In this document: one piece after another, positions 1 through 43,386 of the stretch
Position numbering within the stretch: the first letter of the stretch is position 1
Layout of the letters: each line of letters starts with the position of its first letter
Source: a virus
Taxonomy: Duplodnaviria > Caudoviricetes
DNA length: 64,000 nt
Virus record (IMG/VR): IMGVR_UViG_2619619233_000003
Location: 1-64,000 of that record
Strand: one strand, 5' to 3'
Program-made: the position numbers and the translations under genes
Notes under the pieces: model-generated
Seen by the model: only the letters and a program-made list of their open reading frames with translations
The model's database searches: none
What the model was told of the DNA's origin: nothing

Positions 1-264
1 ATGCAGAAACTTCTAGCCATTCTTGCTTCGCTCACTGTCATCGTGTGCGGCGGCGTTTTCTTGTCAGGGGAATGGTCTAAATACCAATACAGAGAAAGCC
101 TGCGGCGCGCTAAGTTGGAATTGTTTAGGCTTGCCGAAGCTGGCCCGGACGAAGAATATAAGGTGAGTAACTACTGTCGCCTTTTTGTCGAGGCGGCGCC
201 TCATGTGCAAGATCAAGGCATAAAGGACACTGCGAAAGACTGCCTGCGTTTTGGCTTCCATTGA
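1..264 (+). CDS. Hypothetical membrane-anchored protein (right-end cargo)
   Basis: ATG at 1, hydrophobic N-terminus (LLAILASLTVIVCGGVFL), 87 aa. The start may lie upstream. Confidence 0.5.
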   Translation: MQKLLAILASLTVIVCGGVFLSGEWSKYQYRESLRRAKLELFRLAEAGPDEEYKVSNYCRLFVEAAPHVQDQGIKDTAKDCLRFGFH

Positions 265-302
265 GTTCAACACGGATGGGTATATCCCACCTTACATCTC
301 CG

Positions 303-596
303 ATGCCCGACAGTTACCAACCCAAATATACCTGGAAGCGCACGCAGATCGACGAGGCCGATCCGCCGACAGATTTTGACTGGATCGGCTATGAAGGTAA
401 AGGCGCGGTCGGCAGGGTCAGGAAAGAGATGCACGGTCCGACCAAGGGCCGCTGGCTCTGGGCCGGCTGGTACCCACGACCGTTCAAGGGAACGCCGCCC
501 ACGCCCAATACCGGATACGCGGCCACCTGCCGCCTCGCGATGCAGAAGTGCGAGGAATATTGGGACCGCTGTAAGGATGTAATGAAAGAGCGTTAG
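303..596 (+). CDS. Hypothetical Trp-rich protein
   Basis: ATG at 303 (MPDSYQPKYTWKRT...), protein-like composition, converges on the formyltransferase gene. Confidence 0.6.
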   Translation: MPDSYQPKYTWKRTQIDEADPPTDFDWIGYEGKGAVGRVRKEMHGPTKGRWLWAGWYPRPFKGTPPTPNTGYAATCRLAMQKCEEYWDRCKDVMKER

Positions 597-639
597 GGGG
601 CTTTAAGCCATCCTTGAGGACACCTTAAAGCCCACTTGG

Positions 640-1194
640 TTAAACCCCGCTGCGCTGCTCCGAGGCCGGGAGAAAGCCGTATCCATCTAGGTGGTCGACG
701 GCTCTGGCTATCAACTCAACGCCCATGGGTGCGAGGCACCGGCGCCACAGATCGGCAGGCGTGTCGGCTTTGCCGATAAAGCACCAATCCTGAAACACGA
801 CGCCGCCCGCGTCCATCTCGTCGGTGAGGTGATAGACGGTTCCTCCCGTGACACTTTCGCCGGCGTTGATCGCGTCCTCTACGGCGCGTGGCCCCCGGTA
901 AAGTGGGAGGAGCGATGGATGGTATCCGATGCTCCAAGCGGCGCCGGCTCTAACCGCCGGCGGAACATACGCAAAGGACCCGGCCGTAATCAGCAAGTCG
1001 ATACGTTCGGGCAAGCTGAAATCCCTCAGCCCTCGGCCGCCGTAGATGAACGTCTCGATGCCGGCGCACGCGGCCGCTGAGGCGAGCCTGTCGTCGGCGT
1101 CCGGAGCGGCCACGATCTGCACCGTGGCGGAGCCGCCGATGGCTTCAAGAACCTGCGCCCCGATCCACTTTTGACCTATTAATGCTATGCGCAT
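640..1194 (-). CDS. Formyltransferase (Formyl_trans_N domain only)
   Basis: GYHPSLLPLYRG, TGGTVYHL and MDAG motifs of the Fmt/PurN family; no C-terminal tRNA-binding domain. Start overlaps the stop of the upstream gene. Confidence 0.9.
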   Translation of the reverse strand: MRIALIGQKWIGAQVLEAIGGSATVQIVAAPDADDRLASAAACAGIETFIYGGRGLRDFSLPERIDLLITAGSFAYVPPAVRAGAAWSIGYHPSLLPLYRGPRAVEDAINAGESVTGGTVYHLTDEMDAGGVVFQDWCFIGKADTPADLWRRCLAPMGVELIARAVDHLDGYGFLPASEQRSGV

Positions 1195-2306
1195 TCCCGC
1201 ACCTCTATCCCTTCAATGTACCTGAACCCTTGAACAGCGCGGAAATGGCCACCGTATCCCGATTTGGTGGATGTTCCCCGCCCCAGTTCCTTTTCGGTTG
1301 CGCCCTTCGGGCCGCCGTAAAGAACGCCGGAAACCTGCGTCCAAAGTGGGTCGCGGCGAAGGGCGGCCGCCAAGCCGGGATGAGAGGTATGGAAGAGAAC
1401 CGGCATCGGCTTGCGATAGCGGTTCTGGCCGCGCCGCCATGCGGCGCAAACTGTATTCAGGAAGCGGGTTCCGACACCCGCGCCCTGCCACTCCGGCATC
1501 ACGACCAGGCGGCAGGCCCGCGCCTCTACAAGGCCCGGCCGGGTGGACACCGCCAGGTGCGCCACAGGCTCCCCGTCGACGAACGCGACGTAGCAATCGG
1601 CCGCGATCATCCGGGGCATTTTCAGATAGTGATGCGGTTCAAAATAACGCCACCATCGCCAGTCGGTCTTTCTGATTTCCACGGTGATCCGGGGGCGTCG
1701 CCGAAGATACCTCCCGGTGAAAGCACCTGTCGCGGTATCAAAGACCCAATCCGGGTCAAGCCAGTCGATGATGTCATAATGGCAGGAGAGCAGCGCGGCC
1801 CGCCCACCAGTTCGCCGCCATGCCTTGCCGAAGGCCAGCGCGCCCACGCGGGCGATCTGCCGATCGACAACGGAGGTGAATTCGTCAATCACGATCTCAG
1901 CCGGCCGGTCGCAAACGATGCGGGCGAGATCGGCGCGGAAGCGTTCTCCGTTCGATAACACATGCCACGGCCGCAACCAGCTCGGCACGGACCCAAGCCC
2001 GACCGCAGATAGCGCGGCCGTTGCGTTATCGAACGATCCGGCGGCATCGATGACATCGATTATCGGCTTGTTTGTCGGCCACTCGATCGAGGCGGTTTTG
2101 TCGGTGCCGAAGAGATGGCGGCCGAGCGTTGACTTTCCCGAACCGGAGGGACCGACGATGAGGCCGAGCCGCCAGTCCGCATCCTCGATCGGCAGGTCGA
2201 CCGAAAGTTCAAAGCGACTGCCATCTTCGACGTTGAAGAGGCTCCGGACCCGAGCGGCGCGGTAGCTGTCGAAATTTTCGCAGGTGTTGATGAGGTCAAG
2301 CTTCAC
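1185..2306 (-). CDS. ABC-ATPase / GNAT acetyltransferase (Mom-like) fusion
   Basis: Walker A GPSGSGKS, signature LSNGE, Walker B IVIDE, H-loop LSCH, then HHYL and the GNAT motif RLVVMPEWQGAGVG. GTG start at 2306 overlaps the upstream TGA (GTGA). Confidence 0.88.
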   Translation of the reverse strand: MKLDLINTCENFDSYRAARVRSLFNVEDGSRFELSVDLPIEDADWRLGLIVGPSGSGKSTLGRHLFGTDKTASIEWPTNKPIIDVIDAAGSFDNATAALSAVGLGSVPSWLRPWHVLSNGERFRADLARIVCDRPAEIVIDEFTSVVDRQIARVGALAFGKAWRRTGGRAALLSCHYDIIDWLDPDWVFDTATGAFTGRYLRRRPRITVEIRKTDWRWWRYFEPHHYLKMPRMIAADCYVAFVDGEPVAHLAVSTRPGLVEARACRLVVMPEWQGAGVGTRFLNTVCAAWRRGQNRYRKPMPVLFHTSHPGLAAALRRDPLWTQVSGVLYGGPKGATEKELGRGTSTKSGYGGHFRAVQGFRYIEGIEVRECA

Positions 2307-2479
2307 GTCACCACCACCTTTATCTTGCAAGCGCGGATTGCGGAGAGAGCGTCATAGAGCTTAGCCTGATCGCTTTCGCTTTCGCAGACGAGAATGACGC
2401 CCCATTGGGGTTTGTAGCTGTACTTGTTTTTACCGGGGGATGTTTTTGGAAGAGGTGGAAGGTCTGTCGTTTGAGGCAT
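2303..2479 (-). CDS. 58-aa hypothetical protein (not in the ORF track)
   Basis: RBS AAGGAG then ATG at 2479. Translates to MPQTTDLPPLPKTSPGKNKYSYKPQWGVILVCESESDQAKLYDALSAIRACKIKVVVT. Overlaps the com 3' end and is coupled to the ABC-GNAT start. Confidence 0.75.
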   Translation of the reverse strand: MPQTTDLPPLPKTSPGKNKYSYKPQWGVILVCESESDQAKLYDALSAIRACKIKVVVT

Positions 2480-2648
2480 TAAGCCGCTCCTTAGATCGCC
2501 GCTCCTGGCGGTCGGTTAAGGGCTCTGCTGGCCTCAAGTGATTGATGGTGCCGCAACGGCGGCACTTGATTTCGATATCGTTAGATATAGCACCCTGTCC
2601 AGCCCGGAAAAGGAGGGCTGAACAGGTGCCACAACGAATGTTTTGCAT
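2430..2648 (-). CDS. com: Com family zinc-ribbon translational regulator
   Basis: IRCxxCxxLL...IKCxRCxxIN four-cysteine motif, located at the right end after the tail genes. Confidence 0.9.
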   Translation of the reverse strand: MQNIRCGTCSALLFRAGQGAISNDIEIKCRRCGTINHLRPAEPLTDRQERRSKERLNASNDRPSTSSKNIPR

Positions 2649-33083: not shown

Positions 33084-33393
33084 TCTTCTTTCCTCCAAAG
33101 TTCGGGCGGATGATGTTGCTCTCTGCTTTTTCAAGCAGGCTGGTGAGTTCACCGGTCGCAAGCTGCTCGGCAGTCTTTGCGAGCAGCTTTCCCGCCTCGC
33201 TGTCGCGCAGAATAGAAAGCTCAAGCTCAAGGTGGCCGGCCTGCTGGGACAGGGCGCGAAGGGTTTTCAGCACGGTCTGGGCGGAACGCGCGTCCAGTTC
33301 CAGTTTCTCATCCGGCTTCATCTTTTTGGCTTCCGCGAAGATGCCGGCGAGATATTCCAGATGAGTTTTCAGGGAGGGAGCCGCCGATGTCAT
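33067..33393 (-). CDS. Hypothetical protein
   Basis: ATGA-coupled to the MuB stop. Confidence 0.6.
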   Translation of the reverse strand: MTSAAPSLKTHLEYLAGIFAEAKKMKPDEKLELDARSAQTVLKTLRALSQQAGHLELELSILRDSEAGKLLAKTAEQLATGELTSLLEKAESNIIRPNFGGKKNDGEA

Positions 33394-34421
33394 AGGCTGT
33401 CCCCCATGTCGCGGTTCTTCCAGGCGGCCTGAAGGTGCTCCAGACGCACACCTTCCTCGCCGTCGCCGATGGCAAGCATCGATGCGGCCTTCATGGTGCG
33501 GTCGATCTGTCGGAGAGCACCCGGCTTGCTGGCGATACCCTTCAGGAAGGTGGCGCAATCCGTGCCTTCGTCGATGCCCCAAGCCTTGATCAGGATTTCC
33601 GCATCGGCGACCGGATTGCGCGCCGTGCGAACTTGGCGATCGAAGCGGGAGAGCACCTGGGCGCGGCTGGCGACAGAACGGCCGAGGTCTTTCACGAACG
33701 CCGTCGCGGTATCCTCGTTCCCGAGCAAGGCAACACCGCAATGGTCGTTGTCGACGAAATGGCGAAGCTGGTTGATCGCATCCGGAACCGCGTTCTGCGC
33801 CTCATCAATGATGAGCAGCGAGCCTTCGCCGACGCGCTTCAGCTTTGCGCCGAGGGCGCGGACGAACTTTGCGGGATTGTGCTCATGCACTTCGAGCGCC
33901 CCGCACAACTCGACGAGCATGCCGTGCACCGTCTTGGTGCTCGGGCTGAGCGTCGCCATGAACACGTGAGGGCGCGTTGCTGCAAAGTGCTTTGCCGCGG
34001 TTGTCTTGCCGGAGCCTGCGGGCAAGGTGACGCGGACGAAACCGGACGTTACCTGGGCAAACAGAAGTGCGTTGTAAACGTCCTGGCCGACCGTTGTGCG
34101 CTGGAAAGGCGGCGACACTGGCATGATGGCAGCCATATTCTGGCTTGCGTCGATGGCATCGAGCCAGTTGGCCATCTGCTGATTAACGTTCGCCAAAATG
34201 CCCAGATATTTTCCGCCAAACCACGGCGAGAACGTGCCTTCGGGCACGCCGGAGCGGCGGGACACTTCTGCTTTCGTCCAGCCGTATGTGACGGCGACAT
34301 CGACAGTGCGCGCTGTCAGGTTTCGCCATTCGGCAACGTCCGATGCCGGATGTTTGGCGGTAAACTCGATTAGCGGTTGCGACTGTTCCCACACGCTATT
34401 TGTGTTGGTCGTCTTTTTCAT
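33390..34421 (-). CDS. MuB-like AAA transposition ATPase
   Basis: N-terminal HTH, AGSGKT, LIIDEAQ, LLGN and GALR motifs; follows the transposase. Confidence 0.92.
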   Translation of the reverse strand: MKKTTNTNSVWEQSQPLIEFTAKHPASDVAEWRNLTARTVDVAVTYGWTKAEVSRRSGVPEGTFSPWFGGKYLGILANVNQQMANWLDAIDASQNMAAIMPVSPPFQRTTVGQDVYNALLFAQVTSGFVRVTLPAGSGKTTAAKHFAATRPHVFMATLSPSTKTVHGMLVELCGALEVHEHNPAKFVRALGAKLKRVGEGSLLIIDEAQNAVPDAINQLRHFVDNDHCGVALLGNEDTATAFVKDLGRSVASRAQVLSRFDRQVRTARNPVADAEILIKAWGIDEGTDCATFLKGIASKPGALRQIDRTMKAASMLAIGDGEEGVRLEHLQAAWKNRDMGDSL

Positions 34422-34501
34422 ATAAAGGTTCCTTCGTTCAATTGTGGGGCGGCCTTCGGGTCGCTCATTTTTTTCGCCCTGTTGGACTGGAACCGTACTC
34501 A

Positions 34502-36517
34502 CTACTTTTCGGCTCTTCTCTTGCGGGCAGGCTTGTTGCCTGCCTCGTTATTCCCCGTGGGGAATTGGATGATTGCGCTTTCCCCGCCCGCCACTCGGGC
34601 GAGGCCACGCGCAAAACTGTCTTCGAAATGATCGACGCTGACCGCCTCGACCGGGGCATGTGCAAGGTTGCCGGTGACAAGGCGCGTGACGACCGGACGA
34701 ACCGGCGTCTGCGGACGCTTCGCAGCCTCGGCCTTGCGGCCCTTTTCCATGATCTCGCCAAGCTGCATCGGTGAGAGCGCCGCATTGCTCTTGGCGACCG
34801 CCTGAAGGTTCTTGACGTGGGTCTTGCGTGCCTTCTCCTGGCGGCGGGCAGCGTCCGTGTCGGCGAAGCCGGTTTTAGCCAGGCAGTCGGCGTCACAAAG
34901 GAAGCGGCCTTCCGGGTCGTAGACCTTGACCGGCTTGTACAGGTCGGCCGGATCGAACCGCACCGTCAGCTTCTTGCCGATCCACTCGTTAAGCACCGCG
35001 TTCCAATAGCGGTTGCCGTGCATGTGGATCGCGCCGTCCGGCTTGCGTGCGGTGATGGCGACGGCCGACAGCATCCAGAGCGAACGCTGGGCCATGCTGG
35101 CATAACGAACGATCGTGGACGGCTCGGCGATCGACGCGTCAAACGTCTGCGCAAAACTGCGGCCGTGGGCGGTTTCCGTTGTGCGGTTCAGCCGGTGATT
35201 ATGCTCGTCAACGCATTGCGCCACATGGCGCTGGAGCGTTTCGAGCCGAACCGCGCTGTTGCCGTAGTTTTCCGGCTTCGCGTCGGGCTTGTTGCCGGTA
35301 TAGCAACCGGACATGGACGGATGCTTTGAGATTTCCTCGGCGAGATCGCGCCATGCGCGTTCGATCGGCTTAGACTGGCCGGAACGCGGCTTCACGAAAT
35401 GCGGCTCGATGTCGAGCGTTTTCAGGAGGCCGGCAACATCGTCCTCATTGACCTTGAAGCGGTGGCGGGTCTTTGCCCCGCCCGATATCATCTTGCCCGC
35501 GAAGGCACGGCCGTTGTCCATGTAGATGTGATAGGGCAACATGCCGTCATGGTTCTCGATCATGGAACCGATGCAGGTGCGGACGGCCTCCCATGTCTCG
35601 GCCTCGGCAAGCGTCCACGAAAGCACCTTGCGCGAATAGACATCCTGAATACCGATCAGGATCACGCGGACCGGTGTTTCCGACCACGGTGCCCGCACAA
35701 ACAAGTCGAGCTGGTGACCGTCGGTGTTGACGATTTCCATGGCATGCAGGTGGGCGACGGTGCGCTTTTGCGCCGGGAATAGCTGCTTTGCCTTGTCCTT
35801 GCCTTCGCGGGCGATGATCTGCGCGGCCTTCGGGACTTCCGCGTCCAGGCGGCGCCGCAAAGAACGCTCGGAAGGGACCGGCGACAGGTTCTGGTCGCGG
35901 GCAACCATCATCATGCGGCGATAGCAGGCGCTAAAGGAAGGGCGCTCGGGCCGCAGGAAATCCGATTTAAGGATTTTCCAAGCCTCGGGGTGGCAGGGCG
36001 CGACTTCGGCGGCTTCGCCGGTGCCGCTGCCCGAGAATGACGGGGCGAGGGCAGCAAGCCAGTCCTGGCGAGAATGGCCTTCTACGCTTTCCATCCAGTT
36101 GTACACGGTGCGCGGCGATACCGATGCTTTACGGGCGCAAAACTCGATCGCCTTTACAGTCTGCAACCCGGCTGCGCGCAGCTCCGCAATCTCGGTCAAC
36201 ACGCCCAAGCGCGTTTTGCAGATCGCTTTATGGGCGTCTGACAGGGCCTCAAAACGGTCCCAAAGCATCTTTGAAAGCTTGGTCGGGCGCGGGTCGCTAG
36301 GCTCCGCATTGAGGAATGCGAGCTTGGCCTGCGCCACCGCAGGAAGGAAGGAATAATGGTACTCAAACCCGCCGCCTTGCCCGGCCTTAGTACGGGCTTT
36401 CGCGGTGGATCGCACGCCGGAGCGAGCGATAAACAACTCTAGTCCTTGGCGGGAGCTCGGAACACCCGGCAATGCCGCCTGGGCCAGTTCTGCGGATGTG
36501 AACCATTCCTTCTTCAT
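34502..36517 (-). CDS. MuA-like DDE transposase
   Basis: Mu DNA-binding N-terminus (GGGFEYH), DGH, DVYSR, DNGRAF, KPIERAW, and C-terminal RFDP.DL. Confidence 0.95.
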   Translation of the reverse strand: MKKEWFTSAELAQAALPGVPSSRQGLELFIARSGVRSTAKARTKAGQGGGFEYHYSFLPAVAQAKLAFLNAEPSDPRPTKLSKMLWDRFEALSDAHKAICKTRLGVLTEIAELRAAGLQTVKAIEFCARKASVSPRTVYNWMESVEGHSRQDWLAALAPSFSGSGTGEAAEVAPCHPEAWKILKSDFLRPERPSFSACYRRMMMVARDQNLSPVPSERSLRRRLDAEVPKAAQIIAREGKDKAKQLFPAQKRTVAHLHAMEIVNTDGHQLDLFVRAPWSETPVRVILIGIQDVYSRKVLSWTLAEAETWEAVRTCIGSMIENHDGMLPYHIYMDNGRAFAGKMISGGAKTRHRFKVNEDDVAGLLKTLDIEPHFVKPRSGQSKPIERAWRDLAEEISKHPSMSGCYTGNKPDAKPENYGNSAVRLETLQRHVAQCVDEHNHRLNRTTETAHGRSFAQTFDASIAEPSTIVRYASMAQRSLWMLSAVAITARKPDGAIHMHGNRYWNAVLNEWIGKKLTVRFDPADLYKPVKVYDPEGRFLCDADCLAKTGFADTDAARRQEKARKTHVKNLQAVAKSNAALSPMQLGEIMEKGRKAEAAKRPQTPVRPVVTRLVTGNLAHAPVEAVSVDHFEDSFARGLARVAGGESAIIQFPTGNNEAGNKPARKRRAEK

Positions 36518-36978
36518 TTGCGCACCCGACGAATGTGCACCGGCGTCGCCTGAAGAACTTTCAGTTCCTGGGCGAGCTTCTTTTGCTCCTGGCGGATGCG
36601 GGACATTTCCGCGAGGCGGGCTTCATCGCCTTCGAGCAGCAACAGGCCGTCATCGGAAACGACGACATCCCAGAGCCAGAAGGCGTTCGTGGCGCGGACA
36701 AACGCCTTGAAGCGCGGCATGCTGATGTCGTGGGCGGTTTTGCTCTCGGCGGTGTAGCTGTCGAGAGCCGACTTCGAGACCTTGTCGAGGCCGAGGTAAT
36801 AGGCCATCCGCGCCGCGATCGTGTCGCGGTCGTATTGGCATTCGCGAATGGCGCGGGCCATTTCGCGTTTCAACGTCGAACGGAAGCGGTCGATATCGAG
36901 ACGTTCCGATGCGGATCGCACCGGGAAAACCGTCTCCTTGAAAAAGTCCATCTGGTTGGGGTCGCGTTTCGTGCTCAT
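36514..36978 (-). CDS. Hypothetical regulatory protein
   Basis: R..IAARM..YLG..VSK..LD.Y pattern; coupled to the transposase start. Confidence 0.7.
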   Translation of the reverse strand: MSTKRDPNQMDFFKETVFPVRSASERLDIDRFRSTLKREMARAIRECQYDRDTIAARMAYYLGLDKVSKSALDSYTAESKTAHDISMPRFKAFVRATNAFWLWDVVVSDDGLLLLEGDEARLAEMSRIRQEQKKLAQELKVLQATPVHIRRVRK

Positions 36979-37820
36979 GCTGCCTCCTCGCGGATCGCAG
37001 CCATGAGGGCATCCGGCGCGTCAGACATGCCGATGTGCTCAAGGAAGCTATCGCGTGTTTCTTCGCTCGCCTCGTCCCAGGCAGCGATCAGTTTGGTGAG
37101 AATGATGGATTGAGAAGGCGCGGGCGGCGCGGTCACCAGAACCGGTGGCTTGGTGAAAGCCAGAACCTTCTTCACATCTGGGGTGTGCTTCAGAGCGTCA
37201 GCCACCGCGACCTGATCTTCGCGAGGCAGTTTTGCCAGAGCAAGAAGCTGTGACTGATCGTTCTCCGCAGTGGTGCCGCGTACCGCCTGCCTCAGCACCG
37301 GATCAAGGTTTTGCCCAATGCGCGACACAAGCTTATATGTCTCGGCGCCGAAGCCAAAACGCTCCTGAACCTTTTCGGACAAGGCCCGACCCTTGGCGAA
37401 AACAGGGTAATCGTTACCCTGTTTTTCAGGTCTGCCGCCCTTCGGATTGATCTTCCCGTGCTTTTCCTCCCACAGCTCGCGGTACTTCATGACGAAGATT
37501 GCGCGGTCGAGTGCGTTCAACTCGTTGCGGTAAAGGTTCTCGGAAATTTCGAGCAGCTGCGCCTCGACGGCGTCAGCCTTGACGACAATGGCGTCGATCT
37601 CCGTCCAGCCGAGCAGCGTTGCGGCGGCGGTGCGATAGCCGCCCGCCACCAGCGTATAGGGAGTGCCCTTTTTCGCGGGCGTCTTGCGGATCATGATTGG
37701 GCTGATCTGCCCGTGTTCGGACATCGAGGCGGCGATCGCCTCGGCGTAATCCATGTCGATCGGGCGCAGCCGTTCGCCGACATGAATGCTGGAAATGGTG
37801 GCCCGGATGAACTCAGCCAT
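36975..37820 (-). CDS. ParB-like N-terminal domain protein
   Basis: G..SPI, LVAGGYR and EISENL.R motifs; RBS CAGGA then ATG at 37820. Confidence 0.85.
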   Translation of the reverse strand: MAEFIRATISSIHVGERLRPIDMDYAEAIAASMSEHGQISPIMIRKTPAKKGTPYTLVAGGYRTAAATLLGWTEIDAIVVKADAVEAQLLEISENLYRNELNALDRAIFVMKYRELWEEKHGKINPKGGRPEKQGNDYPVFAKGRALSEKVQERFGFGAETYKLVSRIGQNLDPVLRQAVRGTTAENDQSQLLALAKLPREDQVAVADALKHTPDVKKVLAFTKPPVLVTAPPAPSQSIILTKLIAAWDEASEETRDSFLEHIGMSDAPDALMAAIREEAA

Positions 37821-38187
37821 AGGAGGCTTCCTGTCCGGCCGAGGCCTCGTAAAGCATCTCCATAAAGGTGTCTTTGGCGCGGGCGGCGACGCGCTCGTAA
37901 GCCTTGTCGAAAAGCGGTTCGAAGCGGCGGGCCTCGACGACGCGGACAGCCTGCATGACGGTCCAGCGGGCAACACCCAGGAGCACGACCAGGCGGCGGC
38001 GCGGCACGCCGAAATCGATATGCAGGACGTAGATCGCCATCTGCCGCGCGAGCTTCGCATCGAACATTTCGGCAGGCGGATTGATGATGTGGCGCAGTGG
38101 CAGGTGGTTGAAGTGCGCGCGGCTGGCGCGGTAGCTGGCCGCCACCATCGCCTGCAAACGTTCTTCATCGGAATAAGGATTTACCAT
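37813..38187 (-). CDS. DnaA-C-terminal-like HTH protein
   Basis: ARQMAIYVL...ARWTVMQAVRVVE pattern. Confidence 0.65.
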   Translation of the reverse strand: MVNPYSDEERLQAMVAASYRASRAHFNHLPLRHIINPPAEMFDAKLARQMAIYVLHIDFGVPRRRLVVLLGVARWTVMQAVRVVEARRFEPLFDKAYERVAARAKDTFMEMLYEASAGQEASYG

Positions 38188-40528: not shown

Positions 40529-40795
40529 ATGGCGCCGGCTGATAAGTTCATTGTTGTTCCATTCGCAGAGCGGAGAAATGAAATGGTGAATGTCGATTGG
40601 AAGGTCGCGCCGAAGAATGCCCGCTGGTGGGCTGTCGATGCCAATGGTGAAGCGCACTGGTTTTGCGAGCCGGACATCGCGGCGTTTACTGACTTCTGGT
40701 TTTCTGAGCCGATCGGCGCACCTTCGTTCGGCTTCGACGGCGACTGGAGAGCGAGCTTAACAGAGCGCCCGTCACGGTTTGGCCTGGTCCGGTAA
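40529..40795 (+). CDS. SOS-boxed small Trp-rich protein
   Basis: DWKVAPKNARWWAVDANGEAHWF; alternative start ATG at 40583 with RBS GGAG. Confidence 0.65.
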   Translation: MAPADKFIVVPFAERRNEMVNVDWKVAPKNARWWAVDANGEAHWFCEPDIAAFTDFWFSEPIGAPSFGFDGDWRASLTERPSRFGLVR

Positions 40796-40800
40796 CGAAA

Positions 40801-40834
40801 AAAGCCGCGTTGCATCTTCATGCAACGCGGCTTT
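40801..40834 (+). terminator. Perfect 15-bp inverted repeat
   Basis: AAAGCCGCGTTGCAT-CTTC-ATGCAACGCGGCTTT right after the ORF stop. Confidence 0.65.
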
Positions 40835-41230
40835 CTCTTATTATCTTTGATTTCATTACAAAAAATCGGGATTTTTCGAACTTGCAAGGCAGTTGCATGT
40901 TCAATTTAACTTTTGGACCGTCATCCGTGCTTGGTTGCGAGATATCCGCGCGAGGCCGCCGATTTCTTAAAGGCCGGTTTTCTGGGCTTTAAAGGGTCTT
41001 AAAAGACCGATAGGGTGGTTTTTGAAGAGTTGTTGAGGGAAGCCCGAATTTTCCCCGTTTCTGCCGCGACGGATCGCAGATGGCGCCGCCAGTCTGTCAA
41101 ATTCGGTTTTTATCGCTTCTCGCCTGCACGCTTGGAAGCCCCTGATTTACAAGGCTTTCCCGCCAGTTCCCGGATATTATCGGATATTCCCAGAAATTGC
41201 AGTAAGTGGTGACAAAGTACAAGCGCGTTT

Positions 41231-41287
41231 TCGGAATTTTGACACGAGAAATCGGAATTTCTGAAAATTCCAGATTGGCGTGTCAAA
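41231..41287. repeat. Putative transposase-binding array at the right end of prophage B
   Basis: TCGGAATTT direct copies at 41231 and 41252, an inverted AAATTCC at 41265, and a TTTGACACG/CGTGTCAAA inverted pair. Confidence 0.5.
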
Positions 41288-41378
41288 GCCAGAAAAGGGA
41301 TTTCTCTAACCATCCTCTTTACCCACCAGCACTGTCGTCGGTATGGTCCGGTCCAAGACAATGGCTAGGGGGTGTTTC

Positions 41379-41825
41379 ATGCCGAAGTGTAAGAGTTGTG
41401 GGACGGAATATTGGATCAGCGGCACGCAGTTTTGTGTCGACTGCGAGGCTCAGGAGAAGTCCAAACAGCTTCAAGTCTTAACGGACAGAATGATCCTTAC
41501 AACGTCCATTGATGTACCAAATCGCGCAATCGAGAACGTAATCTCAATCGTCGCATCGGAAACGGCGATCGGTATGAATGTGTTCAAAGACATTGCCAAC
41601 AACTGGCGAGATTTCGTTGGCGGGAGATCGGAAACATCCCAAAACTCTCTTAGAGAGACGCGGGAAGCCTGCATCGAAGGGCTGAAAAAAGAAGCGGCGA
41701 AGGTTGGGGCGGATGCCGTGATCGCTGTCGATTTTACCTACAATCAACTCAACACCAGCGGTCCTGGAGGGATACTGTTTGTCGCAGCTACCGGCACAGC
41801 GGTCGCATTGAAACCGCTAGGCTAG
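41379..41825 (+). CDS. YbjQ/UPF0145 family protein with an N-terminal zinc ribbon
   Basis: CxxC...CxxC, then VGGRS...GADAVI...ATGTAV motifs. Confidence 0.85.
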   Translation: MPKCKSCGTEYWISGTQFCVDCEAQEKSKQLQVLTDRMILTTSIDVPNRAIENVISIVASETAIGMNVFKDIANNWRDFVGGRSETSQNSLRETREACIEGLKKEAAKVGADAVIAVDFTYNQLNTSGPGGILFVAATGTAVALKPLG

Positions 41826-42308: not shown

Positions 42309-43217
42309 TTAATGACCACTTAAATGGGCATTTTTGAGAGTTCGCCACGCATACGCTGCAGCCAGGCTGACCACGCCGTTACCGGCTGCGTCGGATCGGT
42401 CCACCCGATCGGCCATCCCATGATCCAGTCCGAAAAGTTCGGGTTGAAGGTCAGGTCGCCGGGCGAGGATCGGTGACCAGCGTTCAAACTCAGATGGAGC
42501 GGGCGGGAAGATGGAAAGCTGAACGGACGTGTCGGGGTCGCTCCGCATGCCTGCATCAGCATCCATATCTGCGTCCACAGCCGTGCTGCCTTGCCGATCC
42601 CGAACTGAGATCCCGCGGCCGCCGCATCGTCCCTCATCTTGAAGCAATCGTTGACCAGTTCCATCTCGATCTTCGTGCAGTAGATCGATTTTGTTGGCGT
42701 GGGCCACAATGAAGAGCCGCCGACGCTGGTGGGACGCGCCGATTTCTGCCGCGCTGAACAAGCCCGCTTTGACTGTAAAGCCCAGCGATCGAAGGTCCCC
42801 GAAAACCGTGTCGGCTCCCAGGGACATATGCCCTTCGACGTTTTCGAAGAAGCACCACTCGGGATCAAGGTCAGTGACGATTCTCCGGACGTAAGGCCAG
42901 AGGTGGCGGGGATCGTCCTCGCCCTTGCGCCGGCCGGAGAAGCTGAAGGGCTGGCAGGGATATCCGGCAGTGAGGATATGAACCTTTCCACGCCAAGGCG
43001 TGCCGTCGAAGGTGGTAACGTCATCCCAGACAGGCGCCTGATCCAGGGCCTTGTCTTCCATCCTTGCCACGAGAGTGGCCGCAGGGAAGGCTTCCCGCTC
43101 GACGTAACAAACAGTTCGATAGTCTGGTTCTGCGATGTGGAGGCCGAGTTCGAGGCCGCCGACGCCGGCGCAAAGCGAGACGCCGCAGAGGTCATTTCTG
43201 GAGGTATGTAGAGCCAC
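42309..43217 (-). CDS. C5-cytosine DNA methyltransferase, large polypeptide (motifs I-VIII and X)
   Basis: SLCAGVGGL, GYPCQPFS, ENVEG, HQRRRLF and GNGVV motifs; motif IX absent. Confidence 0.92.
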   Translation of the reverse strand: MALHTSRNDLCGVSLCAGVGGLELGLHIAEPDYRTVCYVEREAFPAATLVARMEDKALDQAPVWDDVTTFDGTPWRGKVHILTAGYPCQPFSFSGRRKGEDDPRHLWPYVRRIVTDLDPEWCFFENVEGHMSLGADTVFGDLRSLGFTVKAGLFSAAEIGASHQRRRLFIVAHANKIDLLHEDRDGTGQRLLQDEGRCGGRGISVRDRQGSTAVDADMDADAGMRSDPDTSVQLSIFPPAPSEFERWSPILARRPDLQPELFGLDHGMADRVDRSDAAGNGVVSLAAAYAWRTLKNAHLSGH

Positions 43218-43219
43218 AC
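42320..43219 (-). CDS. Overlapping-frame partner polypeptide carrying methyltransferase motif IX
   Basis: GTG at 43219 (MWLYIPP), 299 codons open, C-terminal LTFNPNFSDWIMGWPIGWT. Confidence 0.7.
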   Translation of the reverse strand: MWLYIPPEMTSAASRFAPASAASNSASTSQNQTIELFVTSSGKPSLRPLSWQGWKTRPWIRRLSGMTLPPSTARLGVERFISSLPDIPASPSASPAGARARTIPATSGLTSGESSLTLIPSGASSKTSKGICPWEPTRFSGTFDRWALQSKRACSARQKSARPTSVGGSSLWPTPTKSIYCTKIEMELVNDCFKMRDDAAAAGSQFGIGKAARLWTQIWMLMQACGATPTRPFSFPSSRPLHLSLNAGHRSSPGDLTFNPNFSDWIMGWPIGWTDPTQPVTAWSAWLQRMRGELSKMPI

Positions 43220-43386
43220 GAGTTCATCCTTGGTTGCCGCTCCTGGCGGTCGGTTAAGGGCTCTGTTGGCCTCAAGTGATTGATGGTGCCGCAACGGCGG
43301 CACTTGATTTCGATGTCATTGGATATGGCTCCCTGCCCAGCCCGAAACAATAGGGCTGAACAGGTGCCACAACGAATGTTTTGCAT
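43192..43386 (-). CDS. com: Com family translational regulator
   Basis: First ~50 aa almost identical to the Com at 2430-2648. Confidence 0.9.
   Translation of the reverse strand: MQNIRCGTCSALLFRAGQGAISNDIEIKCRRCGTINHLRPTEPLTDRQERQPRMNSCGSTYLQK

What the first reader, a model, noticed from the sequence alone, without database searches (positions are those of the whole stretch)
640..2648. Candidate new DNA-hypermodification operon in the Mu 'mom' slot: Com, 58-aa ORF, ABC-ATPase/GNAT, formyltransferase
Seen: four overlapping, coupled genes at the prophage right end. The GNAT half has HHY and QGxGxG motifs, and the last gene is a stand-alone Fmt/PurN-type catalytic domain with Y in place of the usual N before HPSLLP. 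Known: in Mu, Com activates translation of mom, a GNAT-fold enzyme that modifies adenine against restriction. The same slot in prophage B holds a DNA methyltransferase, which supports a DNA-modification role. Inference: the operon installs an ATP-dependent acyl/aminoacyl group on a DNA base and then N-formylates it using 10-formyl-THF, a chemistry I do not recognise as characterised. Phage ABC-GNAT fusions may have been noted computationally; I cannot verify prior description of this formyltransferase partner.
Basis: partly seen in the sequence, partly recalled or inferred. Interest (0 to 1): 0.92.

Follow-up and report, generated by a model that had tools for sequence, protein, structure and literature searches.

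The report
Com-gated phage ABC-GNAT formyl-transfer cassette
At the end of a Mu-like prophage, where phage Mu keeps its DNA-protecting gene mom, sit four coupled genes of a very common, never-tested phage cassette that probably puts a small acyl (perhaps formyl) mark on phage DNA.

Summary
The four overlapping minus-strand genes are real: com (2430-2648), a 58-aa ORF (2303-2479), an ABC-ATPase/GNAT fusion (1185-2306) and a 184-aa formyltransferase-fold protein (640-1194).

This is one copy of a widespread phage cassette. More than 6,700 ABC-GNAT relatives were found. The formyltransferase lies directly downstream in 58 of 63 close viral loci.

[quoted passage not shown] 2013, as cited in their 2021 paper). 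This scan has also met the cassette many times on other DNA (27 notes, at least 25 genomes). I found no bench test.

Added here:
- The 58-aa ORF is a stand-alone copy of the C-terminal domain of the ParB-like proteins that precede ABC-GNAT in other phages.
- The GNAT domain is not Mom-like. It looks like acetyl-CoA-type GNATs.
- The formyltransferase is closest to the thiol-formylating N-domain of 10-formyl-THF dehydrogenase. A sister lineage carries aspartate decarboxylase plus a CoA-transferase in the same slot.

Neither the chemistry nor the DNA target is proven.

The parts
2430..2648 (-). com: a Mu Com-type zinc-ribbon translational activator (72 aa)
   Evidence: PF10122, E 3.3e-13. phrog_6417 'translational regulator', E 1.9e-12. 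47% identical to Mu Com over 32 aa, E 5e-8. Overlaps the next gene by 50 nt, as Mu com overlaps mom.
2455..2560 (-). Predicted stem-loop that pairs the Shine-Dalgarno sequence (AAGGAG) and the AUG region of the 58-aa ORF. It is a candidate Com-relieved translation block.
   Evidence: RNA fold: MFE -33.6 kcal/mol, z -2.29, 3 of 200 shuffles fold as well. Sequence. This is an inference by analogy with Mu mom. The support is modest.
2303..2479 (-). 58-aa ORF: a stand-alone copy of the C-terminal ~45-aa domain ('CTD') of the ParB-like partners of ABC-GNAT. Probable adaptor.
   Evidence: phrog_28816, E 6.1e-13. A profile of 28 small ORFs matches the last 40 residues of the Gordonia phage Axumite ParB-like gp1 (hhalign 98.1%, E 9.8e-14) and of the Streptococcus phage 315.4 ParB_N protein (87%, E 3.8e-6). 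L042 carries a 185-aa form with a ParB-like N-terminal extension fused to it (ParB-likeness by eye; no Pfam hit at E<=0.01). The profile finds 1,162 cluster representatives at E<=1e-3. In 149 of the 150 listed, the domain sits at the extreme C-terminus.
1185..2306 (-). ABC-ATPase/GNAT fusion (373 aa from GTG 2306; the longest ORF runs to 2330). The ABC domain is about 1698-2306 and the GNAT domain about 1188-1697.
   Evidence: phrog_11143, E 3.5e-148, plus ABC_tran and Acetyltransf_1/7. Invariant in 34 of 34 sequences: Walker A G60-K66, signature L125-S126-x-G128-E129, Walker B D149-E150, D156, H184, and GNAT motif A Q282/G285/G287. AF2 models: pLDDT 80.2 (whole protein) and 79.4 (GNAT domain). 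Foldseek matches ABC NBDs and acetyl-CoA-type GNATs.
640..1194 (-). Stand-alone formyltransferase-fold protein (184 aa) of the type found in the 10-formyl-THF dehydrogenase N-domain
   Evidence: PF00551, E 7.5e-16. Family profile against PDB sequences: FDH/ALDH1L1 N-domain E 2.5e-41 (144.7 bits); the next best is Met-tRNA formyltransferase, E 2e-24 (89.6 bits). H92, S94 and D128 are invariant and align with the FDH triad His106/Ser108/Asp142.
598..634 (.). Inverted repeat GGGCTTTAA...TTAAAGCCC between the formyltransferase stop and the stop of a convergent ORF. Looks like a bidirectional terminator.
   Evidence: Read from the sequence. Seen as a 9-10-nt self-complementary match. Not tested further.

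Best explanation
This is a late, Com-gated copy of the widespread phage ABC-GNAT cassette. It most likely marks the phage's own DNA with a small acyl group before packaging.

Proposed steps:
1. Com relieves a stem-loop that hides the ribosome site of the 58-aa ORF. The three downstream genes are then translated by coupling. (Inferred from the overlaps and the fold.)
2. The 58-aa protein is the surviving C-terminal domain of a ParB-like partner. It acts as an adaptor for the ABC-GNAT enzyme. (The homology is shown; binding is inferred.)
3. The ABC domain uses ATP binding and hydrolysis as a clamp or switch on the nucleic acid, not to activate the acyl group. (Inferred from what ABC domains do.)
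4. The GNAT domain transfers an acyl group from an acyl-CoA to an exocyclic amine of a base. (The CoA-type motif and fold are shown; the substrate is inferred.)
5. The formyltransferase-fold protein does not act on DNA. It moves formyl from 10-formyl-THF to the thiol of CoA, as the homologous FDH domain does to a phosphopantetheine arm and as proposed for HypX. This supplies formyl-CoA, so the mark would be an N-formyl base. (Inferred.)

My odds: about 0.6 that it is a DNA base acylation cassette, and about 0.35 for the formyl-CoA route.
For: DNA as the target:
- The slot is that of Mu mom.
- A near-identical Com gates a C5 DNA methylase in the adjacent prophage.
- In other phages the partner is a ParB_N protein carrying the same C-terminal domain. 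A ParB/CTD-type hit lies upstream in 79 of 80 Oenococcus-type loci.
- In that group the cassette sits directly before the terminase genes. Of 78 loci, the first downstream ORF falls in a DUF5681 cluster in 44 and an HTH/small-terminase-like cluster in 12; the second is a large terminase in 39.
- Iyer et al. [quoted passage not shown]

Acyl-CoA as the donor:
- GNAT motif A is invariant.
- The best structural matches are acetyl-CoA-dependent GNATs such as RimI, SpeG and Naa (E about 1e-5).
- In the Jace-type lineage the downstream slot holds aspartate decarboxylase (PF02261, E 2e-33) and a CoA-transferase III fragment (E 2e-8). The CoA-transferase is downstream in 19 and PanD in 15 of 42 loci, all among the 24 closest relatives.

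The formyl-CoA step:
- The family profile matches the FDH N-domain 55 bits better than any amine formyltransferase.
- The His/Ser/Asp triad is invariant, and the position two residues before the His holds no Asn in 35 of 35 sequences.
- The FDH domain passes formyl to a 4'-phosphopantetheine thiol (PMC8748788, abstract and passages; PMC6802093 discussion).
- The HypX N-domain is proposed to make formyl-CoA from 10-formyl-THF and CoA (PMC6802093, abstract and discussion passages).

Linkage: the formyltransferase is directly downstream in 58 of 63 close viral loci. It also appears in the phage records of phiE255, Komp_PAO1_1, Gordonia and Porphyromonas and in L122.
Against: - No experiment exists. 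I found no paper reporting a modified base for any phage with this cassette.
- DNA as the substrate rests on context only.
- Formyl-CoA and N-formyl or N-acyl bases are labile. The Mom paper's abstract notes the instability of acyl groups at N6 of adenine.
- From recall, no GNAT is known to use formyl-CoA.
- The authors of the HypX paper say direct experimental evidence for formyl-CoA is lacking.
- Many ABC-GNAT lineages have no accessory enzyme at all: none of the accessory or partner types I searched for turned up in any of the 80 Nonlabens-type loci, and most Oenococcus-type loci have none. The GNAT can therefore work with a common donor.
- The formyltransferase family is not confined to the cassette. 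ABC-GNAT is absent upstream in 73 of 79 genome loci chosen by likeness to the formyltransferase.
- ASCH domains accompany the cassette only rarely: two annotated phages and 2 of 80 loci by tblastn.
Confidence: 0.4

Rival explanations
1. The GNAT first installs an acyl or aminoacyl group that carries a free amine on a DNA base; as with Mom, the donor could be an aminoacyl-tRNA. The formyltransferase then N-formylates that amine using 10-formyl-THF.
For: Mom, a GNAT-fold enzyme, uses Gly-tRNA(Gly) to modify adenine in dsDNA (PMC13219725, abstract). Most characterised members of the formyltransferase fold formylate amines; Met-tRNA formyltransferase, sugar N-formyltransferases and PurN all appear among the hits. 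In the Jace-type lineage PanD would supply beta-alanine, an acyl group with a free amine. The GNAT and formyltransferase genes are tightly coupled.
Against: The GNAT profile has no likeness to Mom (probability 0.5%). It keeps the CoA-type motif A. The formyltransferase has no Asn two residues before the His, where amine formyltransferases carry it (that placement is recalled), in 35 of 35 sequences. It is 55 bits closer to the thiol-formylating FDH domain. It also lacks the C-terminal domain of Met-tRNA formyltransferase: it is 184 aa, against chains of 314-322 residues. No amino-acid-activating enzyme lies in the cassette.
Confidence: 0.15
2. The target is not DNA. The ABC-GNAT enzyme acylates an RNA, in the way TmcA/NAT10 combine an ATPase and a GNAT to make ac4C on tRNA or rRNA. 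Alternatively it acylates a host or virion protein, as a takeover or anti-defence function.
For: An ATPase plus GNAT architecture makes ac4C in RNA. The only hits of the GNAT profile in the PDB sequence search were a diamine acetyltransferase and RNA cytidine acetyltransferase NAT10, and they were not significant (E 0.84-1.4). ASCH domains, known as ac4C deacetylases (bioRxiv 10.64898/2026.08.01.741249, passages), accompany the cassette in two phages. The best sequence hits of the ABC domain include the ribosome-binding ABC-F proteins ABCF1 and EttA. Phage GNATs that acetylate host proteins are known (PMC7824862, passage). A Porphyromonas record labels the small ORF 'acr candidate'.
Against: The cassette occupies the mom slot under Com control, and the sister prophage uses the same Com for a DNA methylase. 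The partner is a ParB_N-type protein. The position is next to the terminase genes. All of these fit DNA better. The NAT10 hit is not significant.
Confidence: 0.2
3. The formyltransferase-fold gene is a metabolic passenger, working as a 10-formyl-THF hydrolase or a purine/folate auxiliary gene. It is only co-transcribed with ABC-GNAT and has no shared chemistry with it.
For: PHROG and the record annotations call it 'cyanobacterial phosphoribosylglycinamide formyltransferase', an auxiliary metabolic gene. The isolated FDH N-domain is a hydrolase (PMC4388273, start of the abstract seen in the search listing only). A whole chromosomal clade of close homologues lives without ABC-GNAT.
Against: It lies directly downstream, often overlapping, in 58 of 63 close viral loci. 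It is also present in the annotated records or loci of Gordonia, Porphyromonas and Burkholderia phages and in L122. On the tree, the ABC-GNAT-linked copies span most of the diversity, and the 'linked' label needs only 2 changes, against about 46 in shuffles. No NCBIfam model reaches its cut-off: PurN scores 46 bits against a cut-off of 150.
Confidence: 0.07

Closest known systems
Phage 'GNAT coupled with an ABC ATPase' system predicted to acylate a DNA nucleobase (Iyer, Zhang, Burroughs and Aravind, NAR 2013, as cited in Iyer et al., Viruses 2021, PMC7824862); PHROG 11143; the source label 'ABC-type ATPase with predicted acetyltransferase domain'
   Same: The same fused architecture and the same phage setting. 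The window protein matches phrog_11143 at E 3.5e-148. Its relatives carry that JGI label.
   Different: The prediction has not been tested at the bench, as far as my searches show. I could not read the 2013 paper (not held), so I cannot say whether it already describes the formyltransferase, the ParB C-terminal domain or the Com link. The 2021 paper has no occurrence of 'formyltransferase'.
Mom and Com of phage Mu (6-NcmdA; Gly-tRNA-dependent GNAT; PMC13219725)
   Same: The same genomic slot after the tail-fibre genes. There is a homologous Com whose gene overlaps the next gene. The catalytic domain has a GNAT fold. The role is presumably protective marking of DNA.
   Different: There is no detectable likeness between the GNAT domain and Mom (hhalign 0.5%), and Mom is not among the 50 best Foldseek rows. 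Here the enzyme has an ABC ATPase, a small adaptor and a folate enzyme, whereas Mom works alone with charged tRNA (abstract).
N-terminal hydrolase/formyl-transfer domain of 10-formyltetrahydrofolate dehydrogenase (ALDH1L1; PDB 4qpd, 1s3i, 7rlt) and the N-domain of HypX
   Same: The family profile aligns end to end with FDH residues 1-201 at E 2.5e-41. It shares I-G-Q near the N-terminus and Y-H-P-S-L-L-P, and the His/Ser/Asp triad is conserved. Both FDH and HypX hand formyl to a pantetheine thiol.
   Different: The phage protein stands alone at 184 aa. There is no carrier domain, no aldehyde dehydrogenase domain and no enoyl-CoA-hydratase-like domain. The match to HypX itself is much weaker (E 1.9e-10). 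The acceptor is unknown.
TmcA / NAT10 (ATPase plus GNAT that makes N4-acetylcytidine in RNA)
   Same: The same logic: an NTPase domain fused to an acetyl-CoA-type GNAT that acts on a base in a nucleic acid.
   Different: From recall, the ATPase there is helicase-like, not ABC. The sequence likeness is not significant (E 1.4). Its substrate is RNA.

Membership tests
Phage ABC-ATPase/GNAT cassette (PHROG 11143; Iyer 2013 prediction) | A single polypeptide with a complete ABC nucleotide-binding domain followed by a GNAT domain | tested here: met
   Pfam ABC_tran plus Acetyltransf_1/7. phrog_11143, E 3.5e-148, covering residues 13-374. All ABC motifs and GNAT motif A are invariant in 34 of 34 sequences. 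AF2 model pLDDT 80.2.
Phage ABC-ATPase/GNAT cassette (PHROG 11143; Iyer 2013 prediction) | A small partner upstream carrying the ParB-associated C-terminal domain | tested here: met
   hhalign 98.1%, E 9.8e-14 to the C-terminus of a Gordonia phage ParB-like protein. A homologue of the small ORF lies upstream in 75 of 79 close loci.
Phage ABC-ATPase/GNAT cassette (PHROG 11143; Iyer 2013 prediction) | It acylates a DNA base | not testable with these tools
   The evidence is contextual only. No bench data were found.
Mom family (Mu Mom) | Sequence or profile likeness to Mom | tested here: not met
   hhalign of the GNAT profile A3 against Mu Mom: probability 0.49%.
Mom family (Mu Mom) | Translation gated by an overlapping com gene at the late end of a Mu-like phage | tested here: met
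   Com is present. It overlaps the next gene by 50 nt. The genome is Mu-like, with MuA, MuB and a Mu portal.
Mom family (Mu Mom) | Use of Gly-tRNA(Gly) as donor | not testable with these tools
   The feature is taken from the abstract of PMC13219725.
FDH (ALDH1L1) N-domain-type formyl transferases | His-Ser-Asp catalytic triad and the folate-site motif H-P-S-L-L-P | tested here: met
   H92, P93, S94, L96, P97 and D128 are invariant in 35 of 35 sequences. They align with FDH His106, Ser108 and Asp142 (the triad as named in PMC6802093).
FDH (ALDH1L1) N-domain-type formyl transferases | A phosphopantetheine-carrying acceptor, either a carrier domain or CoA | tested here: inconclusive
   There is no carrier domain in the cassette. 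A CoA-using GNAT is the neighbouring gene. The acceptor itself was not tested.
Amine formyltransferases (PurN, Met-tRNA Fmt, ArnA, sugar N-formyltransferases) | Asn-x-His...Asp triad (the position of the Asn is recalled, not tested) | tested here: not met
   The position two residues before the His is G, A or I in 35 of 35 sequences. NCBIfam PurN and fmt score 46 bits against cut-offs of 150 and 201.
ABC transporters | A membrane permease partner | tested here: not met
   The four genes of the cassette are Com, a 58-aa soluble-looking ORF, ABC-GNAT and the formyltransferase. No Pfam transporter domain was found in or beside them.
ParB_N proteins | A ParB N-terminal (CTPase-fold) domain in the partner protein | tested here: not met
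   The window's partner is only 58 aa and has no Pfam hit. The ParB_N domain is present in the partners of Jace, 315.4 and the Oenococcus phage and in 10 of 34 long CTD-bearing proteins at E<=1e-3.

The most novel reading that the evidence does not exclude
The cassette writes a DNA base modification not yet described in any virus: an N-formyl group on an exocyclic amine (N4 of cytosine or N6 of adenine). The donor would be formyl-CoA that the phage makes itself from 10-formyl-THF with an FDH/HypX-type enzyme. Sister lineages would write other acyl groups from other home-made acyl-CoAs, such as beta-alanyl via PanD and a CoA-transferase. That would make ABC-GNAT a programmable 'acyl-CoA to DNA' writer, recruited by a ParB-derived adaptor.
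Probability: 0.3. Interest if true: 0.85.

Novelty: new member of a known kind. Interest (0 to 1): 0.55.

Why it matters
If the reading is right, thousands of phages across many phyla carry an ATP-driven enzyme that acylates DNA bases, a chemistry with no characterised example in viruses. It would add a class of anti-restriction marks.

It would also give a second natural route to formyl-CoA besides the one proposed for HypX. And it would offer a writer whose mark depends on which acyl-CoA-making gene sits beside it.

The question is directly testable, because cultured phages carry the cassette: Burkholderia phage phiE255, Pseudomonas phage Komp_PAO1_1 and several Gordonia phages. This particular copy is one more instance. 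Its own interest lies in the Mu-type Com gating and in the minimal adaptor that has lost its ParB domain.

Tried and rejected
**Mom likeness.** The profile comparison was negative. The Foldseek list of the GNAT-only model shows ordinary acetyl-CoA GNATs, and Mom is not in the 50 rows printed. The profile search of PDB sequences gave only three non-significant hits.

**Whole-protein fold search.** It returned only ABC NBDs, so I folded the GNAT domain alone.

**NCBIfam.** Nothing reached a cut-off.

**Prophage end.** I found no inverted repeat between window 1-760 and the left-end region 40701-41500. ORF 261-596 has no homologue in the fetched loci. The end could not be placed.

**The window's own ParB_N protein** (36975-38168) does not carry the adaptor domain (hhalign 0.4%).

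**Fusion of the adaptor to ABC-GNAT.** None appears among the best 150 of 1,162 profile hits; the longest is 237 aa. There is therefore no fused-gene (Rosetta-stone) evidence that the two bind.

**ASCH as a regular partner.** Rejected: two annotated phages and 2 of 80 loci.

**The five close loci without a formyltransferase** (L011, L015, L021, L053, L074). I looked at their ORFs only and did not annotate them.

**Tree.** The tree is the quick tree, because the careful search did not finish. Its root is a midpoint, for drawing only. The window's own formyltransferase was not among its rows. Hits shorter than 140 residues or containing a stop were dropped, and identical sequences were merged: 144 kept hits became 138 tree rows.

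**Papers not held.** Iyer et al. 2013 and Krishnan et al. 2020 could not be read. Supplements were not opened. They may already describe the links I report, as may the gene-neighbourhood data of the Mom paper.


Full report
**What is there**

On the minus strand of window 640-2648 lie four ORFs:
- com (2430-2648, 72 aa)
- a 58-aa ORF (2303-2479)
- an ABC-ATPase/GNAT fusion (longest ORF 1185-2330)
- a 184-aa formyltransferase-fold protein (640-1194)

Pfam and PHROGs confirm each one:
- com: Zn_ribbon_Com, E 3.3e-13
- 58-aa ORF: phrog_28816, E 6.1e-13
- ABC-GNAT: ABC_tran plus Acetyltransf_1/7, and phrog_11143 at E 3.5e-148 (function unknown)
- formyltransferase: Formyl_trans_N, E 7.5e-16, and phrog_9240 at E 8.6e-42

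Thirty-one of the 33 aligned homologues begin at the residue matching V9. The ABC-GNAT start is therefore probably GTG 2306, which gives 373 aa behind an AAGGTGG ribosome site.

The surrounding element is Mu-like. It has a MuA transposase (34502-36517), MuB (33390-34502), a Mu portal and a tape measure protein. The window is the first 64 kb of an 82,085-nt provirus record, so the cassette lies 640 nt from the record's edge, and it is the only copy in that record. I could not place the true phage end.

**It is one copy of a widespread cassette**

The ABC-GNAT protein has 6,764 relatives at E<=1e-10 among the 8,000 candidates scored. It also matches 86 of 50,697 phage records.

In 80 IMG/VR loci with at least 60% identity:
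- 63 have at least 560 nt downstream, and 58 of those carry the formyltransferase directly downstream on the same strand.
- 75 of 79 have a homologue of the 58-aa ORF upstream.
- 47 of 78 give a Com hit by tblastn.

A cruder but more sensitive test looked for an ORF with CxxC...CxxC within 420 nt upstream. It finds one in 63 of 72 loci, against 0-3 of 64-72 in windows shifted by 0.7-2.8 kb.

Annotated phages show the same trio or its variants:
- Burkholderia phiE255 gp28-gp30 after the tail-fibre genes
- Pseudomonas Komp_PAO1_1
- Porphyromonas phages
- Gordonia phages, where a ParB-like protein, the ABC-GNAT and the formyltransferase-like gene (annotated 'tRNA-methyltransferase') precede the terminase

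**The 58-aa ORF**

It aligns with the last ~45 residues of the ParB-like proteins that precede ABC-GNAT in Gordonia, Rhodococcus, Streptococcus and Oenococcus phages.

A profile of 28 small ORFs matches:
- the C-terminus of Axumite gp1 at 98.1% probability, E 9.8e-14
- the C-terminus of the 315.4 ParB_N protein at 87%, E 3.8e-6

One close locus (L042) has a 185-aa form with an N-terminal extension that looks ParB-like by eye, although it gives no Pfam hit.

Against 1.84 billion cluster representatives, the profile finds 1,162 proteins at E<=1e-3 and 474 at E<=1e-10. In 149 of the 150 listed, the domain is at the very C-terminus. Their lengths fall near 40-130 aa or 150-240 aa. Of the 34 long ones, 10 reach Pfam ParB_N at E<=1e-3.

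So the Mu-like phages keep only the adaptor domain of a ParB-type partner. Binding to ABC-GNAT is inferred. No fusion to ABC-GNAT was seen, and the complex predictor was not available.

**The enzyme**

Walker A, the signature motif, Walker B, the D-loop and the H-loop are invariant in 34 of 34 sequences. So are H-H-Y and the GNAT motif Q-x-x-G-x-G.
- The AF2 model of the whole protein (pLDDT 80.2) matches ABC nucleotide-binding domains.
- The GNAT-only model (pLDDT 79.4) matches acetyl-CoA-dependent GNATs such as RimI, SpeG and Naa enzymes (best E 7.9e-6).
- It is not Mom-like (hhalign 0.5%).

From general knowledge, an ABC domain is an ATP-driven clamp or switch, not an adenylating enzyme.

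**The formyltransferase**

The family alignment (35 sequences) keeps H92, P93, S94, L96, P97, G101 and D128 invariant. None of the 35 has an Asn two residues before the His.

Its profile matches PDB sequences as follows:

| Match | E-value | Bits |
|---|---|---|
| 10-formyl-THF dehydrogenase N-domain, end to end | 2.5e-41 | 144.7 |
| Met-tRNA formyltransferase | 2e-24 | 89.6 |
| a sugar formyltransferase | 3.5e-23 | |
| PurN | 4e-19 | |
| HypX/HoxX | 1.9e-10 | |

The FDH domain hands formyl to the thiol of a 4'-phosphopantetheine arm through His106, Ser108 and Asp142 (PMC6802093, discussion passages; PMC8748788, abstract and passages). The HypX N-domain is proposed to make formyl-CoA from 10-formyl-THF and CoA, although its authors say direct evidence is lacking.

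**What sits in the same slot elsewhere**

I scanned IMG/VR with three distant ABC-GNATs.
- Jace-type loci (42): a CoA-transferase-III-like gene lies downstream in 19 and aspartate decarboxylase in 15, all among the 24 closest relatives. One locus (L122) has a formyltransferase instead.
- Oenococcus-type loci (80): a ParB/CTD-type hit lies upstream in 79. My queries contain both domains, so a hit may be to either. Of 78 of these loci examined for neighbours, the first downstream ORF falls in a DUF5681 cluster in 44 and an HTH/small-terminase-like cluster in 12; the second is a large terminase in 39.
- Nonlabens-type loci (80): none of these partners. The gene sits among replication genes.
- ASCH domains follow the cassette in two annotated phages but in only 2 of 80 loci by tblastn. 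ASCH proteins are N4-acetylcytidine deacetylases (preprint passages). That is only a lead towards cytosine N4.

**Reading**

The variable downstream genes look like makers of the acyl donor: PanD plus a CoA-transferase in one lineage, and an FDH-type formyl-to-thiol enzyme here. The constant core (adaptor, ABC, CoA-type GNAT) would do the transfer.

DNA as the target is supported by four points:
- The slot is that of mom.
- The same Com gates a C5 methylase in the neighbouring prophage.
- The partner is a ParB-type protein.
- The cassette sits next to the terminase genes.

It is also the published prediction (passage in PMC7824862; the reference was identified). A predicted stem-loop pairs the ribosome site and start codon of the 58-aa ORF (z -2.29). 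That fits Com-type control but is weak evidence.

**Results against this reading**

- No experiment exists. Eight searches aimed at prior descriptions found none; the ninth sought the FDH literature.
- Formyl-CoA and N-acyl bases are labile (Mom abstract).
- Many ABC-GNAT lineages carry no accessory gene.
- Starting from the formyltransferase in one-genome-per-species cellular genomes, only 6 of 79 loci have ABC-GNAT upstream.
- The others are stand-alone genes in Bradyrhizobium and relatives, or fusions such as one with ACT domains.
- On a quick tree, 71 of the 73 unlinked copies form one clade (SH-aLRT 99). The label needs 2 changes against about 46 in shuffles (0 of 500 shuffles as low). 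The linked copies span the rest of the tree. The root is not known.

**Prior art and the scan**

The ABC-GNAT system was predicted in 2013. I could not read that paper or the 2020 classification of ABC ATPases. The Mom paper of 2026 holds no occurrence of 'ABC', 'ATPase' or 'formyl'.

This scan has noted the cassette on other DNA many times: 27 notes hold all the search words, in at least 25 genomes. Earlier follow-ups reached similar readings, including formyl-CoA and the ParB-derived adaptor. I looked those up only after forming mine.

**Verdict**

This is a new member of a known, predicted but untested kind. The chemistry remains open and is cheaply testable on cultured phages.

Noticed in passing
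window 42309-43386 (minus strand): A second Mu-like prophage has a com whose first 40 residues are identical to those of the com at 2430-2648. It is followed by a C5 cytosine DNA methylase (PF00145, E 7.2e-30). A second long ORF (42320-43303) overlaps the methylase in another frame.
   Followed up: partly
window 36975-38168 (minus strand): The early region of prophage A encodes a 397-aa protein with a ParB_N domain (E 1.3e-7). It does not carry the adaptor domain of the cassette.
   Followed up: partly
window 261-596 (plus strand) and 598-634: A convergent 111-aa ORF matches phrog_12188 (unknown function, E 6.7e-40). It ends 44 nt from the formyltransferase stop, with a GGGCTTTAA/TTAAAGCCC inverted repeat between them. 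It has no homologue in the other fetched loci.
   Followed up: partly
L088 4628-5736 (Rhodococcus phage Jace) and L090-L113: In the Jace-type lineage the slot behind ABC-GNAT holds aspartate decarboxylase and a short CoA-transferase-III-like protein. This suggests a home-made beta-alanyl-CoA donor.
   Followed up: partly
L297-L372 (genome contigs), e.g. L341 3001-3588 and L327 3001-4164: A chromosomal clade of stand-alone FDH-N-type formyltransferases occurs in Bradyrhizobium and other Proteobacteria, 42-47% identical to the window's protein, with no ABC-GNAT nearby. One is fused to ACT domains. In Bradyrhizobium an AMP-binding enzyme lies about 1.4 kb upstream. Function unknown.
   Followed up: partly
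L086 3459-4528 (Streptococcus phage 315.4) and L087 3492-4552 (Oenococcus phage): In these Firmicutes phages the ABC and GNAT parts are annotated as two separate ORFs. I did not check whether this is a natural split or a frameshift. An ASCH-domain gene follows.
   Followed up: no
L015 1-1380 and protein P0069: Some relatives have a 459-aa ABC-GNAT with a C-terminal extension and no formyltransferase behind it.
   Followed up: no
L005, L006, L007, L012, L016, L039, L040, L064, L068, L070, L077-L079: Many IMG/VR provirus records end within about 25 nt of the ABC-GNAT stop. The predicted provirus boundary may routinely cut off the formyltransferase gene.
   Followed up: no
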